Positions 26,602-31,930 of a stretch of DNA of 64,000 nucleotides are shown piece by piece. This DNA is from Nitrosopumilaceae archaeon. Its GTDB lineage: Archaea; Thermoproteota; Nitrososphaeria; Nitrososphaerales; Nitrosopumilaceae. Location: the NCBI GenBank assembly GCA_965209085.1, contig OZ242376.1:448001-512000 (forward strand). The letters are read 5' to 3'. The stretch's first letter is position 1. Every line of letters begins with the position of its first letter. The notes under the pieces are model-generated. The model saw nothing but the letters and a program-made list of their open reading frames with translations. It ran no database searches and was not told where the DNA came from. Both the position numbers and the translations under genes were made by a program.

Positions 26602-26814
26602 ATGATGTCAGATCGTATGTTATGTGTGGGAGAAAAAACAAATTTAGTGCACGCTAACAAAAGTGATTCATTACGTACGACAGTTCCATCTAGTATAGTA
26701 AAACAATTTGATTTAGGTGTGGGAGATCAAATTGAATGGAATATTGTTGCATGCGATAATAAAATTGGTTTGAAAGTGAATATTCATAAACAACAAATTG
26801 ATAAGAGTGATTAA
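26602..26814 (+). CDS. AbrB/MazE/SpoVT family DNA-binding protein
   Basis: SDSLRTTVPSSIVKQFDLGVGDQIEW swapped-hairpin signature. Confidence 0.8.
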   Translation: MMSDRMLCVGEKTNLVHANKSDSLRTTVPSSIVKQFDLGVGDQIEWNIVACDNKIGLKVNIHKQQIDKSD

Positions 26815-26815
26815 A

Positions 26816-27349
26816 ATGCTAGTAGAACAAAAATACAATACTATCGTGATTGATCCCCCATGGAGAATAACCACAACAGGACCAAATTCTAAACCGTGTA
26901 GGGGGAAAATTAAGAGACGATTATCTTATAAAACTATGAGTGATGGTGAGATTGCGAATTTTCCTATTGATGACTTTGCCTCTAAACAATGTAATCTGTT
27001 TATTTGGACAATACAAAGTCGGTTACCGACAGCTATGGAGATTATCAAAAAATGGGGATTTCATTATTACTGTACATATACTTGGGTTAAGAATACAGGC
27101 ATTACTATGCAAGGAGTTTTTAGGAATAGTGAGTTTGTTGTTTTTGGGTATAGAGGTAATTATGATATTCCGTTTAAAGGGAAATCCATGCCCACAGCTT
27201 TTAACGGTAAAACGAGCATTCACTCTGAAAAACCTGATGAATTTTATGAAATTATAAGAAAAAAAACAAATACACCTAGAATAGATATTTTTGCTCGTAA
27301 AAGACACTATGGTTTTACTGCGTGGGGGGATCAAGTTCATGAACACTAG
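26816..27349 (+). CDS. MT-A70 family N6-adenine methyltransferase
   Basis: YNTIVIDPPW, LFIWT, WGFHY..TWVK, HSEKPDEFY, IDIFARK, WGDQ. Confidence 0.9.
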   Translation: MLVEQKYNTIVIDPPWRITTTGPNSKPCRGKIKRRLSYKTMSDGEIANFPIDDFASKQCNLFIWTIQSRLPTAMEIIKKWGFHYYCTYTWVKNTGITMQGVFRNSEFVVFGYRGNYDIPFKGKSMPTAFNGKTSIHSEKPDEFYEIIRKKTNTPRIDIFARKRHYGFTAWGDQVHEH

Positions 27350-28819
27350 ATTTTATGCAATTGACCAAAAAAGCAATTTTGACGGATCGAAAGATCTATG
27401 ATCAAGGATCACATTCGTACGGCATGTGTGCCCCAGACAAGCGTATAATTGCCAAGTAAGAAAAGAGAATCTCCGAGCTGGAAGCAGAGGTTCAACGATA
27501 CAAAAATATGGTGCAAAGTGGCAATGGAAACAAAAGACAATACATCGACGAACATTTGGACGATATGATTGGCGATGACAATTATCTGTACGGGACGACT
27601 GGAATGGATCGTGAAGAATTTGAATGGATTCAGGAACGGTTCAAAAAAACCGTAGAAAATTCATCAGAGACTCCACGCTTTTCAGAATATGTCAACGATC
27701 CTGGAAACACCTGTATTCTCACTGCATCCCAAATTTTGTTTGTCAGTGCCGCAAACGCAACAATCCTAAACAGGAATTGCTTGCGGCCATTACAGGCGTT
27801 GATCAGAGCACCATCAGCAGATATCTGACCTTTTCTGATGAACTATTGATGGATATTCTTCCAACGGCTAAGAATATTGGTGCTGCAATACGGGCAATAC
27901 GTACAAGCGAGTTGTTTAAAAATTCGTACCCGGAAGGGATGGCGGCGAGTTGTATCTTGATACCACGTTTGTACAGGTTCAAAGGCCGCAGGAGAATCAA
28001 GAGGCAGTATACTCTGGAAAGCGCAAGAGGCACGTCTACAACGTACAGATAACCTCAAACAAAGACGGGTTGGTACTTGACATTGGTGGATCTGAAGAGG
28101 GCTCAGCACACGACATGGAGGTACTGCGGCGTAATCCGCCAAATTTTGGCAAATGGACTGATGGCATGAAAAATTCTGATACAAAAAAAGAGCGCCAAAT
28201 TATGCTATATACTGACAAGGGATATCTGTCCGTGGAAAAAGATTATCCTGGAATTATCTCAAAATAGCCGTACAAAAAACCAAAGGGTAAAGGGCTGACA
28301 GAGGCAAATCGTGAATACAGCAAGAGGATCAGTCGTAAGCGCATAAAAGTAGAGCATGCCATAAACTGGCTCAAATGGTTTCGTAGAATGAGTGCCATAT
28401 ATGATGACACAATGGATGCGTTTTATACAGAAATCCAAGTGGTTACAGGACTACCAATCTGCACATCATGTTAAAGGATCGCAAGTATATCGAACCGTTG
28501 GAAAAAGTCTGCCCTCAAATCAAGTAGCACATCTGTGCACACAGTCACGTATAATATTCTGCTTTATGTCTTGCATATGATATTTTGATTTATTTTGTTG
28601 TCTGCTTGAAGGTTTTAGGCCATGTGTACTTTGATCATGGTAATGCCATAGTTGGAATCATATGTCTTTGCAGTTGATTATGCATAACCATATGTGAAGG
28701 GAGCTTCTAAGACCACAGATGGTTGTAAGAATGTCAAACGATCCGTATCACCGAAACGTAAATCATCTAAAAAAGATCCAAATGCAAACAAACAGATTAC
28801 CACATATTCTGGGAAGAAT

Positions 28820-29815
28820 ATGTTTGTTGGAATGGACGTTCACAAGAAATTTCTTCAAATTGCAATGATGGATGAAAAAGCCAAAGTGATTTTTAATGAG
28901 AGGATTGAAAATGAAAACAAGTCCATCAGATGATTCTTCAGATCAAGTGTACCTGAAAATGCAAAAATCGTAATGGAATCTTCGTCCGTATGGTACGGAT
29001 TATATCGATACATGACAGATAAAATGGGTTATGATGTCGTATTGTCAAATCCATGGGCGACAAAAATCATCGCCGCATCCAAGAAAAAGACCGACAAGAG
29101 GGATGCTGTAACACTTGCAGACCTATTACGGTGCGGATACATATCCCTCTGTCATGTCTCAAACAAGGACATAGTGGAACAACGGCAACTTGTACGATAT
29201 CGCGACAGTCTTGTCAAGACAAGGACAACTCTAAAAAACAAAATACATGGAATTTTGTTACAGGGAGGGATAAAGATCTTTGGAGCAACATTTACGCTTA
29301 CATACAATAGAAAACTGCGTTCTCTAAAGGATTATCGTATAAACGGATATTTGGATTCTATTGGATTCGTTAATACAAAAATTGCAGACTCAAACATAAA
29401 AGTACACAACGCATCCGGCTCAAACAAGGATGCAATGTTGCTCAAGACAATACCTGGCATAGGTGATTTTATTTCATTGATACTGGCAGCAGAGATTGAT
29501 GGAGTTGAGAGGTTTTCTGAACCAAAACAACTCAAATCATATGCCGGTCTTGCCCCATCGGTTCGCAATTCAGCAGATGTGGTCCATCATGGACATATAA
29601 CAAAAAGAGGCAGCAGGATGATGCGGTGGGCACTGGTGGAAGCTGTTACCACCCATGTCCGATTTGCATCAGAGAGTAACATTTCTGAATTTTACCGGCG
29701 TCTTGCAGTAAAGAGAGGATCATCCAAGGCCAAAGTTGCAGCAGCGGCCAAGATGCTGGATATCATATTTCGTATGCTAAAGGATAGGAGTGAATTTGAA
29801 ATACATCATAGTTAA
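28820..29815 (+). pseudogene. IS110 DEDD recombinase with one in-frame nonsense codon
   Basis: GMDVHKK, MESS, KTDKRDA, TIPGIG, AEIDGVERF..YAGLAP..ITKRG; TGA at 28931-28933, same frame before and after. Confidence 0.88.
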
Positions 29816-29819
29816 AGCA

Positions 29820-29930
29820 ACAAACCGCGAGTTAGAGTTTGGGGATGTTACCCCGTTGTATAACTGCGGTAAGCTTTAACATGTGGACGAAGATGGTTGT
29901 GGGATTAAATCCCGAATGGATAGATGTCTT
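29820..29930 (+). ncRNA. putative bridge/seek RNA (target-binding and donor-binding loops)
   Basis: stem ACCGC/GCGGT with inner GGGG/CCCC and loop strands TAGAGTTT + TGTATAA matching the target; stem GACG/TGTC with inner GGGA/TCCC and loop strands ATGGTTGT + ATGGATA matching the circle junction; transcript boundaries unknown. Confidence 0.75.
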
Positions 29931-30140
29931 TTTACCTTTTGACTGGAAACAAACACATAGCGAAAGCCATACCGCATGACACAAAAAAGCAAGAAACCTT
30001 TAAAAAGTATTCACATGGATAAACTCTATTGGTTATGGATACAAAATAGAATGATGTGTTGGATCACGTACATAAATTTTGATTGTTTAGCTAAATTGGA
30101 CTATATGTAGATCTATTAATAAATATCATTAACGATAATA

Positions 30141-30668
30141 TTGGTAGAACGTATACCTGTGCAAGATCAAGCACGTGAGGACCTGATGATTGAGATTTTG
30201 GGTTTGAAAAAAGCTGAAGGCAGATTAGGACATGATGCCGAGGACAATAATGGAAATATCTTTGAGCTTAAATCATCAACAAAAAATAGCTTTGGAACAG
30301 GCAGGGATGTATCAGTTAGCATGATAAATAAATGGAGAAAACGACATTGGGTATTTGCAAATGGTACGAATTACAAATCGGGATTTAAAATTGAAAGTAT
30401 GTATTATTGCTCTCCAAATATGATGAAAGATCAATTTGATATTTTATATGAAAAATTTAAACCCGATATGAAAATATCTAAAACTGTTCTTGCATACGTT
30501 GATGGAATTTTAGTAGAAATTCAGATTGAACGTCTAAAATATTTGCTGAATAGAGGCATGACATATAATAATCCTCATATAAGCATGAAATATGTAAGTT
30601 CATATGGAATTGAAATTGATCTTTCATGCCCAAAGAATAGCTTAAAGACAATTATGGATAAAAATTAG
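30141..30668 (+). CDS. putative type II restriction endonuclease (PD-(D/E)xK fold)
   Basis: HDAED...FELKSST motif, AT-rich, next to the methyltransferase once the IS elements are removed. Confidence 0.6.
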   Translation: MVERIPVQDQAREDLMIEILGLKKAEGRLGHDAEDNNGNIFELKSSTKNSFGTGRDVSVSMINKWRKRHWVFANGTNYKSGFKIESMYYCSPNMMKDQFDILYEKFKPDMKISKTVLAYVDGILVEIQIERLKYLLNRGMTYNNPHISMKYVSSYGIEIDLSCPKNSLKTIMDKN

Positions 30669-31013: not shown

Positions 31014-31388
31014 ATGCAAGATCCAACACCCATGATATGGGGCGCAATGGACCGGTTTCAGGCTCATTTTATAATCAAAGTAAAAAACAAATCTGATGCG
31101 GATTTGGCGGTAAAATCAATACCAAAGACAAGTGGACATTTTGGCGCAAAAAAACTCACAGGCATATCTTGGAACGGTGCTGGCTCACTTGCTGTATCAT
31201 TGAACGCTGATGCGGATTTAAACTCGTTAATTTTAAAATGCACACTGCACGATGCGCAGATATACATTGAACCTGGCACCGACTGTGTCCGCATACGTGG
31301 AAAATGGTCAAACGGACTTGAATTTGGAATAACAAAAGAAATGTTTGAAATCTACGACCGCATAGCCGGACACGTAAAATCCCTCTAG
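31014..31388 (+). CDS. hypothetical protein
   Basis: ORF MQDPTPMIWG...EIYDRIAGHVKSL, co-oriented with the previous gene. Confidence 0.7.
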   Translation: MQDPTPMIWGAMDRFQAHFIIKVKNKSDADLAVKSIPKTSGHFGAKKLTGISWNGAGSLAVSLNADADLNSLILKCTLHDAQIYIEPGTDCVRIRGKWSNGLEFGITKEMFEIYDRIAGHVKSL

Positions 31389-31930
31389 GCTTTCCACCAG
31401 TCAAGCGCAAGCATCTCAACTGCATACTCTCCGCCCTTTAACTTTGGTATTGCAAGTATGAACTGTTTGCGTACCGTGGTTGCAAGCCTTCCGGCCAAAA
31501 CCACCGCAGTTGAGGTTATAACATCGCTTGCAGAATACACCTGGACAAGATACGGGGCGTGATCTATTCCCGGACCTCTCTCATATACTGCAAAATCGCA
31601 TCCAAATTTTATTCCCGGATTTATAATGTACCCCTTGTTCCTAAAATGCTCATAAACTGCGTATTTTTTATCAAATCCGTGGTATTCATTTCTGCATATT
31701 TGAAGCAGATTCTCATAGCTTTGCTTTTTTTTCTCAGCATGTACTGTAATAATTTTTTTATCCAAAAGATAAATCCCTTCCATAAGATCGAGCACCAGCG
31801 GGGCGTCAATCTCGCCGAATTTTGGCTTTGGAATTCCAATGGGTTTTCCGTAATATCCCATTGAGAATAATTTGTTTGCATCATTTAAGGACCATATTAT
31901 GATCCGATTCTCGACTAGCTCGCCCTTCAA
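31385..31930 (-). CDS. endA: tRNA-intron endonuclease, catalytic subunit
   Basis: VY..FR.KGY..PGIKFGCDFAVYERGPGIDHAPYLV, RLATTVRK (Tyr/His/Lys triad). Confidence 0.93.
   Translation of the reverse strand: MKGELVENRIIIWSLNDANKLFSMGYYGKPIGIPKPKFGEIDAPLVLDLMEGIYLLDKKIITVHAEKKKQSYENLLQICRNEYHGFDKKYAVYEHFRNKGYIINPGIKFGCDFAVYERGPGIDHAPYLVQVYSASDVITSTAVVLAGRLATTVRKQFILAIPKLKGGEYAVEMLALDWWKA

What the first reader, a model, noticed from the sequence alone, without database searches (positions are those of the whole stretch)
28684..30028. Archaeal IS110/IS1111 element whose bridge-like RNA is programmed against another transposon's terminal repeat
Seen: ATAA occurs at both junctions (28684, 30019). 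Excising the element restores TTATGC-ATAA-ACTCTA, the inverted partner (12/13) of the IS5-type left end TAGATTTTATGCA at 27347, and gives the circle junction TTCACATGG-ATAA-CCATATGTGAA. The 3' non-coding end holds two hairpins with internal loops. Loop 1 (ACCGC 29824/GCGGT 29866, inner GGGG/CCCC) carries TAGAGTTT (29833) and TGTATAA (29857), matching opposite strands of the target with one G-U wobble. Loop 2 (GACG/TGTC, inner GGGA/TCCC) carries ATGGTTGT (29893) and ATGGATA (29916), matching both strands of the donor junction. Established: this is the bispecific bridge/seek RNA architecture of IS110-family recombinases, with IS1111 types encoding it downstream. Inference: an RNA-guided recombinase that parasitises IS5/MITE ends; one nonsense codon (28931) separates it from an intact enzyme.
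Basis: partly seen in the sequence, partly recalled or inferred. Interest (0 to 1): 0.88.

Follow-up and report, generated by a model that had tools for sequence, protein, structure and literature searches.

The report
Archaeal RNA-guided IS110/IS1111 insertion sequence
This is a copy, disabled by one stop codon, of an RNA-guided jumping gene (IS110/IS1111 type) in an ammonia-oxidising-type archaeon; its own small RNA aims it at the end repeats of other jumping genes, a known mechanism seen here in a little-studied lineage.

Summary
Window 28687-30019 is a 1335-bp IS110-family element of IS1111 layout: DEDD transposase, long 3' non-coding region, short sub-terminal inverted repeats. It sits inside the right terminal repeat of a decayed IS5-family element.

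- **Copies:** the genome holds 7 full-length copies, many fragments and a second family at about 65% identity. Almost all lie at the same kind of site.
- **RNA structure:** the 3' region folds into five helices. Across 60 distinct relatives 93.7% of cells pair and 20 of 24 pairs show compensatory changes.
- **Guides:** the four unpaired strands track the DNA. Loop 1 matches the two flanks and loop 2 matches the element's ends (0 of 10000 permutations reach the observed match).
- **Empty sites:** uninterrupted sites reading TTATGCATAAACTCTA exist elsewhere in the genome.
- **State of this copy:** it carries one TGA (CGA in sister copies). Two paralogues are intact.

The kind is known: bridge/seekRNA, and IS4321/IS5075 target transposon terminal repeats. 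I call it a new member of a known kind.

Three points are less expected. The loop-2 5' strand matches an internal left-end site better than the terminus. A conserved TATA-like box in the right end would, by inference, start a leaderless transposase mRNA only in the circle. Paralogues are naturally retargeted.

The parts
27347..27359 (+). Left terminal inverted repeat of the host IS5-family element (TAGATTTTATGCA)
   Evidence: It matches the reverse complement of the restored right end in 12 of 13 positions. The same TIR type ends many elements and MITEs in the genome.
27508..28474 (+). Decayed transposase gene of the host IS5-family element (frameshifted; in-frame TAG at 28265-28267)
   Evidence: ORF pieces. 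DDE_Tnp_4 1.9e-21 and DDE_Tnp_1 2.1e-12 when read with TAG=X. IS5-family NCBIfam models, below cut-off because it is a fragment.
28678..28686 (.). Left half of the target, TTATGCA (inner part of the host's right TIR), plus core TA (28685-28686)
   Evidence: 11 of 12 left junctions in the genome read [T/A]TATGC-ATAA.
28687..30019 (+). IS110-family element of IS1111 layout (1335 bp counting one core copy). Sub-terminal inverted repeat ATGTGAA 28692-28698 / TTCACAT 30010-30016
   Evidence: 7 full-length copies at 96-100%. (family). (ends).
28694..29815 (+). Transposase ORF starting at GTG in the left terminus. In-frame TGA at 28931-28933; conserved core starts at Met 28820. DEDD residues and Ser intact.
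   Evidence: D6, E53, D92, D95 and S251 are invariant in 17 homologues; the terminal GTG is in frame with the core in the 34 distinct left ends examined; other copies read C at 28931.
28717..28726 (+). Left-end internal site AGATGGTTGT, identical in sense to the 5' strand of loop 2. It lies in the N-terminal extension of the ORF.
   Evidence: It covaries with the loop-2 5' strand across relatives and lies at LE position 28-35 in 18 of 21.
29811..29929 (+). Bridge/seekRNA core. Helices: P1 29811-18/29873-80 (contains the stop codon TAA 29813-15), P2 29824-28/29866-70, P3 29841-44/29851-54, P4 29885-88/29926-29, P5 29901-04/29910-13
   Evidence: model R1; 120.7 bits here; covariation; RNAalifold finds the same helices.
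29829..29840 (+). Loop 1, 5' strand. [quoted passage not shown]
29855..29865 (+). Loop 1, 3' strand. TGTATAA (family consensus TGCATAA) has the same sense as the left target plus core, so it pairs with the bottom strand.
29889..29900 (+). Loop 2, 5' strand (GAAGATGGTTGT). Complementary to the junction top strand ATAACCAT (one G-T) and identical to the internal site at 28717-28726.
29914..29925 (+). Loop 2, 3' strand. ATGGATA has the same sense as the right terminus CACATGGATA.
   Evidence: ATGGATA versus ATAGATA tracks CACATGGATA versus CACATAGATA.
29957..29970 (+). Third conserved hairpin with a GNRA-type loop (ATAGC-GAAA-GCCAT)
   Evidence: alignment; stem changes seen by eye, not counted.
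29992..30006 (+). Conserved purine-rich block plus TTTAAAAA (BRE/TATA-like), facing out of the right end
   Evidence: A+T is at least 90% over 7 columns in 43 distinct right ends, at a fixed distance from the end. Promoter function is inferred.
30020..30028 (.). Core TA (30020-30021) plus the right half of the target, AACTCTA (outer tip of the host's right TIR)

Best explanation
Window 28687-30019 is an insertion sequence of the IS110 family with IS1111 layout.

**RNA and guides.** Its transposase mRNA carries a structured RNA (bridge RNA / seekRNA) in the 3' untranslated region, with two internal loops.
- Loop 1 reads the target. Its 5' strand pairs with the top strand to the right of a TA core. 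Its 3' strand pairs with the bottom strand to the left of the core.
- Loop 2 reads the element's own ends. [quoted passage not shown] Its 5' strand pairs with the left end.

**Recombination.** By inference, the DEDD recombinase bound to this RNA recombines the circularised element into the target at the TA.

**Target.** In this genome the target is the tip of the terminal inverted repeat shared by an IS5-family element and its MITE derivatives. The element therefore nests in other transposons, which probably keeps insertions harmless to the host.

**This copy.** It cannot make transposase because CGA mutated to TGA. It keeps both ends and a high-scoring RNA, so it could be moved in trans by the two intact paralogues.

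**What is shown:** family membership, RNA structure by covariation, guide-DNA covariation, site specificity and empty sites.

**What is inferred:** RNA expression and binding, circle formation, and current activity.
For: **Family.** Pfam DEDD_Tnp_IS110 and Transposase_20. NCBIfam 'IS110 family RNA-guided transposase', 219 bits against a cut-off of 140. D6, E53, D92, D95 and S251 are invariant in 17 homologues.

**Site specificity.** 11 of 12 left junctions and 17 of 17 right junctions lie in the TIR motif. They fall in at least four different host-element contexts.

**Empty sites.** TTATGCATAAACTCTA occurs uninterrupted at three places.

**RNA structure.** On 60 distinct sequences 93.7% of cells pair, 20 of 24 pairs change on both sides, and 0 of 500 shuffles reach this. 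Slid controls pair in 35-49% of cells. RNAalifold finds the same five helices on a plain MAFFT alignment and leaves the four guide strands unpaired.

**Guides (longest shared stretch, cognate versus non-cognate):**
- Loop 1 5' versus right flank: 5.38 versus 3.39 (n=37).
- Loop 1 3' versus left flank: 5.83 versus 3.64 (n=30).
- Loop 2 3' versus right end: 6.55 versus 4.53 (n=22).
- In each case 0 of 10000 permutations reach the observed mean.

**Natural retargeting.**
- The second family in the same genome has loop-1 CGCAGTATA next to flank TATACTGCG, at the end of an IS630-family element.
- Three paralogues in G239 each match their own flanks, one over 11 nt.
- In the sister genome G349, CTTGTGCAT versus CGTATGCAT tracks ..ATGCATAAGG versus ..ATGCATACGG.

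**Strand order.** The top-strand complement lies 5' of the bottom-strand match, which is the order reported for IS1111-type seekRNAs (PMC11187229, sections read).
Against: - No RNA data. No listed sequencing run is RNA, so expression, processing and ends of the RNA are unknown.
- No circle junction was seen. The runs are contigs, and the element is repeated.
- Only 2 of 7 full-length family-1 copies have an open reading frame, and all 3 family-2 copies checked are broken. The family may be decaying.
- Within family 1 the guide variant does not always fit. Of 10 copies with TAGACTTT, 4 (3 independent) lie next to ..CTCTA, where a C-C mismatch results. One copy (C1:682079) has an unrelated left flank.
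- The sub-terminal repeat is only 7 bp perfect, at the short end of the reported 7-17 bp.
- Relatives are kin, so the permutation figures overstate independence.
- Single-sequence folding is not significant.
Confidence: 0.88

Rival explanations
1. The copies spread mainly by hitch-hiking. The element entered a host transposon or MITE once or a few times, and the composite was then multiplied by the host element's own transposition or by segmental duplication. On this view, shared flanks reflect descent, not repeated RNA-guided insertion.
For: - Two fragments (C1:728323 and C1:959195) share identical flanks on both sides.
- All four family-2 copies carry the same 1.1-kb IS630-family element on their right, while their left flanks differ. 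This fits movement of a composite, or repeated hits on the same end.
- Three family-1 copies share one left MITE arm.
Against: - Family-1 copies lie in at least four different host-end contexts, on both arms of the MITE and on both ends of the IS5-type element, with different outer flanks.
- An interrupted TIR should cripple the host element's own transposition.
- Across genera the guides change together with the flanks. Hitch-hiking does not predict that.
Confidence: 0.08
2. Target choice is made by the protein alone, as in a classical site-specific recombinase. The 3' region would then be only a terminator or UTR whose likeness to the flanks is incidental or copied from the target.
For: - There is no direct RNA evidence here.
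- The single-sequence fold is not significant.
- The element ends and sub-terminal repeats are conserved and could be read by protein.
Against: - Transposases 41-62% identical sit at unrelated sites, and the loop strands change to match each site.
- The helices that frame the loops are kept by compensatory changes.
- The family is experimentally RNA-guided in bacteria (PMC11187229 and PMC11208160, sections and passages read).
Confidence: 0.02
3. The whole family in this genome is now an inert fossil. The RNA and its matches are relics, and no copy moves today.
For: - 5 of 7 full-length family-1 copies and all 3 family-2 copies checked have broken reading frames.
- There are many 5'-truncated fragments.
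Against: - Two copies have open 375-codon frames, and copies are 96-100% identical.
- About 36 uninterrupted ATGCATA-type target sites remain.
- Guides in the intact copies still match their flanks.
Confidence: 0.25

Closest known systems
IS1111-group elements with seekRNA (ISEc11, ISPa11, ISKpn4; Siddiquee et al. 2024, PMC11187229)
   Same: - DEDD transposase of about 330-375 aa.
- Long non-coding region downstream of the gene.
- Sub-terminal inverted repeats, with a left extension of 7 bp counting the core (TAACCAT) and a right extension of 3 bp (GGA).
- The top-strand complement lies 5' of the bottom-strand match in the RNA.
- Site- and orientation-specific insertion, with no true target duplication.
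   Different: - Archaeal host.
- Transposase at most about 36% identical to anything in the plasmid collection.
- The RNA model does not hit a haloarchaeal or a Shigella IS110-family locus, and Rfam has no match.
- The motif is G-L-x-P-x4-S-A rather than S-G.
- The sub-terminal repeat is only 7 bp.
- There is a basic N-terminal extension starting at a GTG in the terminus.
IS621 bridge RNA (IS110 group; Durrant et al. 2024, PMC11208160)
   Same: - One RNA with a target-binding and a donor-binding internal loop.
- Each loop has one strand for each DNA strand.
- The pairings overlap at a dinucleotide core.
- The guides covary with targets and donors.
   Different: - Here the RNA is at the 3' end, not the 5' end.
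- The order of top-strand and bottom-strand binders in each loop is reversed.
- The core is TA rather than CT.
- The loop-2 5' strand matches an internal left-end site better than the terminus.
IS4321/IS5075 (target Tn21-family terminal repeats) and IS1111 in Coxiella (targets a REP inside the MITE QMITE2)
   Same: An IS1111-group element whose preferred site lies inside another mobile element's repeat, so it nests in transposons or MITEs.
   Different: - Those are bacterial; the target here is the outermost 16 bp of an IS5-family TIR.
- I saw only the title of Partridge & Hall 2003, in a reference list, and the abstract and passages of PMC5896051.
- No sequences of these elements were compared.

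Membership tests
IS110 family (DEDD / RNA-guided transposases) | N-terminal RuvC-like DEDD domain (PF01548) plus C-terminal PF02371 domain | tested here: met
   (1e-27 and 7.2e-23, both above the gathering score). (NF033542, 219 bits, cut-off 140, on an intact paralogue).
IS110 family (DEDD / RNA-guided transposases) | Catalytic D, E, D, D and the conserved Ser of the C-terminal motif are present | tested here: met
   D6, E53, D92, D95 and S251 are invariant in 17 aligned homologues. All are present in the window copy. That these residues are the catalytic ones is by analogy with IS621, which I recall rather than tested.
IS110 family (DEDD / RNA-guided transposases) | Structured non-coding RNA inside the element with two loops complementary to target and donor | tested here: met
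   (structure). (guide-DNA covariation).
IS110 family (DEDD / RNA-guided transposases) | RNA is made, binds the transposase and is required for movement | not testable with these tools
   No RNA run is listed. This needs an experiment.
IS1111 group | Longer non-coding region (and the RNA) downstream of the transposase gene | tested here: met
   The ORF ends at 29815 and the element at 30019, so the 3' region is about 204 bp. At the 5' end the GTG lies at position 8 of the element.
IS1111 group | Sub-terminal inverted repeats (reported as 7-17 bp, usually 11-13) with asymmetric extensions of 7 bp (left) and 3 bp (right) | tested here: met
   ATGTGAA 28692-28698 / TTCACAT 30010-30016 is 7 bp perfect. 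The extensions are TAACCAT (7, counting the core) and GGA (3). The repeat is at the short end of the reported range (PMC11208160, passage; PMC11187229, section 4).
IS1111 group | In the RNA the top-strand complement lies 5' of the bottom-strand match | tested here: met
   compared with PMC11187229 sections 4 and 9.
IS1111 group | C-terminal motif GL-P----S(t)G | tested here: inconclusive
   The window copy reads G-L-A-P-S-V-R-N-S-A, so A stands in place of G. S251 is invariant. The paper notes occasional TA.
IS1111 group | Transposase clusters with IS1111-group transposases in a tree | not tested
IS1111 group | Circular intermediate with abutted ends that creates a promoter | not testable with these tools
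   Contigs showed no junction. A conserved TATA-like box in the right end is compatible with this.

The most novel reading that the evidence does not exclude
This archaeal clade may have rebuilt two steps of the IS1111 life cycle.

**(1) Donor reading.** The 5' strand of the donor loop may read an internal site rather than the left terminus. The site lies about 30 bp inside the left end, within the coding N-terminal extension of the transposase. It has the same sense as the RNA and resembles a direct copy of the right end (ATTCA[C/G]AT plus guide-matching bases). If so, both halves of the donor loop would bind bottom strands of two direct repeats.

**(2) Expression switch.** A complete BRE/TATA promoter sits in the right end, about 26 nt upstream of a GTG at position 8 of the left end. 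The transposase and its RNA would then be made as a leaderless transcript only after circularisation. In the integrated state the same promoter fires outward into neighbouring genes, here towards a PvuII-like endonuclease gene 113 bp away.
Probability: 0.3. Interest if true: 0.65.

Novelty: new member of a known kind. Interest (0 to 1): 0.47.

Why it matters
- **A clean natural experiment.** Inside single small genomes, paralogous elements carry different guide pairs, each matched to its own insertion site. Two lineages hit the same transposon end at two different TA positions, with compensatory guide changes.
- **A wider range.** RNA-guided DEDD recombination, with sequence-level evidence, now extends to mesophilic ammonia-oxidiser-type archaea. 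In the class sampled, 78 of 401 genomes carry the transposase (that tally includes one unpublished genome, G282). 19 of 151 family genomes carry the RNA.
- **Transposon ecology.** The element lives almost entirely inside other transposons' ends.
- **Practical use.** The clade offers compact recombinases (about 330-375 aa) with a roughly 120-nt RNA core from a low-G+C, mesophilic background, plus a covariance model to find more.
- **Mechanism.** The internal left-end match and the right-end TATA box are testable leads on how IS1111-type elements recognise their donor and switch on after excision. The 2024 seekRNA paper leaves both questions open (discussion read).

Tried and rejected
- **Single-sequence folding** of 29816-30028 gave z = -0.9, so it was not used as evidence.
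- **Rfam:** no family at gathering score in the whole window. Only chance-level snoRNA/lncRNA hits (E > 1) in 28600-30100.
- **The search for related loci** with one protein gave a single locus. I switched to the genome search.
- **Sequencing runs:** no RNA holder is listed. Contigs of four runs laid on 27000-30400 gave joints and loose ends that I trace to paralogous copies. One is the 30028>28361 joint, which equals the flank of C1:670225. Another is the loose end GAACTCTA after 28685, which equals the flank type of C1:561069. There was no circle junction and no empty allele of this very locus.
- **RNA model on other loci:** R1 run on a Halorubrum and a Shigella IS110-family locus gave no match at E <= 1 with filters off. 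I did not analyse their own RNAs.
- **Within-family guide test:** the G/C guide variant against the CTCTA/GTCTA target gives 4 of 4 for the G type and 6 of 10 for the C type. That is too few independent copies to count as evidence on its own.
- **Recoding of the TGA:** I considered it and dropped it, because sister copies read CGA at that codon and are otherwise open.
- **Not run:** protein fold, complex prediction and atlas searches, because family membership was clear.
- **Literature:** searches for IS110 with Nitrosopumil* and for bridge RNA + IS110 + archaea found no paper describing this clade's RNA. They did find large surveys: PMC11208160, the preprints 10.1101/2024.06.21.599552 and 10.64898/2026.10.21.760802, and PMC13343696.
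Full report
**What is in the window.**
- An IS5-family element starts at 27347 (TAGATTTTATGCA). Its transposase gene is decayed: frameshifted ORF pieces and an in-frame TAG at 28265, with DDE_Tnp_4 at 1.9e-21 when read with X.
- Its right terminal repeat is split by a 1335-bp insert. The left junction reads ..GATTATGCA-TA-ACCATATGTGAAG.. (core TA 28685-28686). The right junction reads ..TTCACATGGA-TA-AACTCTA (core 30020-30021).
- Removing the insert gives TTATGCATAAACTCTA. Its reverse complement matches the left end in 12 of 13 positions.
- The whole nest lies between an MT-A70-type methyltransferase gene (26798-27349) and a PvuII-like endonuclease gene (30141-30668).

**The insert is an IS110-family element.**
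- The ORF 28694-29815 matches DEDD_Tnp_IS110 (1e-27) and Transposase_20 (7.2e-23). It has one in-frame TGA at 28931-28933.
- An intact paralogue scores 219 bits on NCBIfam NF033542, 'IS110 family RNA-guided transposase', cut-off 140.
- D6, E53, D92, D95 and S251 are invariant in 17 aligned homologues.
- The closest proteins outside this genome are 59% identical. The only named one is an 'IS110 family transposase' of a Nitrosopumilus MAG. The best hit in the plasmid collection is haloarchaeal, at 36%.

**Copies in the genome (1.69 Mb, one contig).**
- A DNA search found 28 matches: 7 full-length copies at 96-100%, many fragments, and a second family at about 65% identity.
- Of the 7 full-length family-1 copies, 2 have open 375-codon frames (C1:156306-157650 and C1:693550-694894). 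The window copy and one other share the TGA. All 3 family-2 copies checked are broken.
- Other copies read C at 28931, so the stop arose from CGA.

**Insertion sites.**
- 11 of 12 copies that keep a left end follow [T/A]TATGC. The exception is C1:682079.
- 17 of 17 that keep a right end are followed by A/C/G-C/G-T-C/T-T/C-A. In 15 of these the string ends in TCTA.
- The left flanks fall into at least four contexts: two ends of the IS5-type element and the two arms of a roughly 80-bp MITE built from the same repeats.
- The genome has 43 uninterrupted matches to ATGC[A/G]TA-NNN-TCTA, 36 of them of the ATGCATA type. Three read exactly TTATGCATAAACTCTA, and one reads ATATGCATAAACTCTA.
- These are paralogous empty sites, not the empty allele of this locus.

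**Family 2.**
- It ends ..CACATGGA-TA-TACTGCGGATC.. at the tip of a 1.1-kb element. That element has inverted ends and an IS630-family gene: DDE_3 at 2e-14, NF033545 at 112.9 bits against a cut-off of 100.
- Its left flanks differ between copies.

**The RNA.**
- The 3' regions of relatives from the same class align to a common scaffold. The transposase was found in 78 of 401 genomes (the tally includes the unpublished G282).
- I wrote five helices on a MAFFT alignment of 21 sequences and built covariance model R1 (133 positions, 24 pairs).
- R1 finds 20 copies in this genome, 16 of family 1 and 4 of family 2. It finds matches in 19 of 151 genomes of the family.
- On 72 matches (60 distinct), 93.7% of cells pair and 20 of 24 pairs change on both sides. 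0 of 500 shuffles reach any of the five measures, and slid controls pair in 35-49% of cells. That alignment is fitted to the model and so leans towards it.
- RNAalifold on the plain alignment predicts the same five helices, with 14 of 25 pairs showing compensatory change. It leaves the four guide strands open.
- P1 contains the stop codon, so the RNA is the 3' UTR of the transposase message.
- A third hairpin with a GNRA-type loop follows (not counted).
- Rfam has no match.

**Guides in the window copy.**
- Loop 1 5' strand: TAGAGTTT (29833) is the exact complement of AAACTCTA.
- Loop 1 3' strand: TGTATAA (29857) equals TGCATAA of the left target apart from a C>T that makes a G-U pair. Fourteen of the 16 aligned copies have TGCATAA.
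- Loop 2 3' strand: ATGGATA (29916) equals the right terminus.
- Loop 2 5' strand: ATGGTTGT (29893) pairs with ATAACCAT of the circle junction, with one G-T.

**Guides across relatives (one row per distinct guide and DNA).** The measure is the longest shared stretch, cognate versus non-cognate.

| Comparison | Cognate | Non-cognate | n | Permutations reaching the observed mean |
|---|---|---|---|---|
| Loop 1 5' vs reverse complement of right flank | 5.38 | 3.39 | 37 | 0 of 10000 |
| Loop 1 3' vs left flank | 5.83 | 3.64 | 30 | 0 of 10000 |
| Loop 2 3' vs right end | 6.55 | 4.53 | 22 | 0 of 10000 |
| Loop 2 5' vs an internal left-end site, same sense | 6.71 | 4.83 | 17 | 0 of 10000 |
| Loop 2 5' vs reverse complement of the left terminus | 4.06 | 3.62 | 18 | 143 of 10000 |

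Kin are not independent, so these figures overstate significance.

**Individual cases.**
- Three paralogues in G239 have three different guide pairs, each fitting its own flanks. One fits over 11 nt.
- Five copies in G185 carry TATGAATCA, and four of them lie next to TGATTCATA.
- In G349, the sister genome, two elements sit in the same TIR type at an inner TA. There CTTGTGCAT versus CGTATGCAT tracks ..ATGCATAAGG versus ..ATGCATACGG.
- Elements in other genera (L036, L041, L043, L050) also sit in TAGA..TTATGCATA-type ends.

**Against.**
- Within family 1, the TAGACTTT variant lies next to ..CTCTA in 4 of 10 copies. One copy has an unrelated left flank.
- One G349 copy (L084, first match) does not fit its flank.

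**Which group.** The following fit the IS1111 type as described in PMC11187229 (sections 4, 6, 9, 10, 13 and 14 read) and PMC11208160 (passages read):
- the RNA is downstream of the gene;
- the top-strand binder precedes the bottom-strand binder;
- there is a 7-bp sub-terminal inverted repeat, with extensions of 7 and 3 bp;
- the motif G-L-x-P-x4-S-A is present.

I did not make a tree with named references. I recall, but did not test, that IS621's catalytic residues correspond to those found here.

**Two things I did not expect.**
- *The internal left-end site.* The loop-2 5' strand is identical in sense to a site at position 28-35 of the left end in 18 of 21 elements. In the window this is AGATGGTTGT, 28717-28726. 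Identity over the last 9 guide bases averages 7.1. Pairing with the junction top strand averages 6.0 (4.9 Watson-Crick). The site lies in a basic N-terminal extension of the ORF. That extension starts at a GTG at position 8 of the left end, in frame in the 34 distinct left ends examined and open for at least 300 codons in 20 of them. The two codons after a conserved Ser-Asp vary freely while the bases follow the guide.
- *The TATA-like box.* The right end carries a conserved purine-rich block plus TTTAWAAA at -20 to -13 from the end, seen in 43 distinct right ends. With the usual archaeal spacing (recalled, about 26-27 nt from box centre to start), transcription in a circle would begin at about the G of that GTG. 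This is inference.

**Verdict.** The mechanism class is established, and targeting of transposon ends has bacterial precedents. Large surveys of IS110-adjacent RNAs exist, and I could not see their supplements. I therefore file it as a new member of a known kind, of moderate interest, with two testable archaeal twists.

Noticed in passing
window 26798-27349 and 30141-30668: The IS5-type element with its nested IS lies between an MT-A70-type methyltransferase gene and a PvuII-like restriction endonuclease gene, probably one restriction-modification unit. The host element's first three bases (TAG, 27347-27349) serve as the methyltransferase's stop codon. The right-end TATA-like box of the nested IS points at the endonuclease gene 113 bp away.
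   Followed up: partly
genome C1:568866-568947, 816374-816455, 1565833-1565914 (outside the window): These are roughly 80-bp MITEs made of just two copies of the IS5-type terminal repeat (..ATGCATACGCTCTA / ..ATGCATACGGTCTA). Both arms serve as insertion sites for family 1.
   Followed up: partly
genome C1:666533-668990 (L022) and three sister loci: The second IS110 family (about 65% identical) always abuts the same end of a 1.1-kb IS630-family element, at its flanking TA, while the left flanks differ. Either the pair moves as a composite or that end is hit repeatedly.
   Followed up: partly
window 28760-28800 and relatives (L031-L048): The nucleotide block GCAAACAAACAGATTA(CC/GGG) upstream of the conserved transposase core is kept across relatives 41-62% identical in protein. 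It encodes A-N-K-Q-I in the N-terminal extension. Whether the conservation acts on protein or on nucleic acid was not examined.
   Followed up: no
genome-wide: At least nine family-1 fragments are 5'-truncated yet keep the RNA region and the right end. They could still supply guide RNA, or act as right-end decoys.
   Followed up: no
L037 (G304:C1:2400171-2404148): Two copies of a related element lie head-to-head about 800 bp apart, with a partial extra RNA copy between them (three R1 matches in one 4-kb locus).
   Followed up: no
window 31385-31930 (-): A tRNA-intron endonuclease gene (both Pfam domains), an archaeal/eukaryotic marker. This supports the archaeal assignment of the window.
   Followed up: partly
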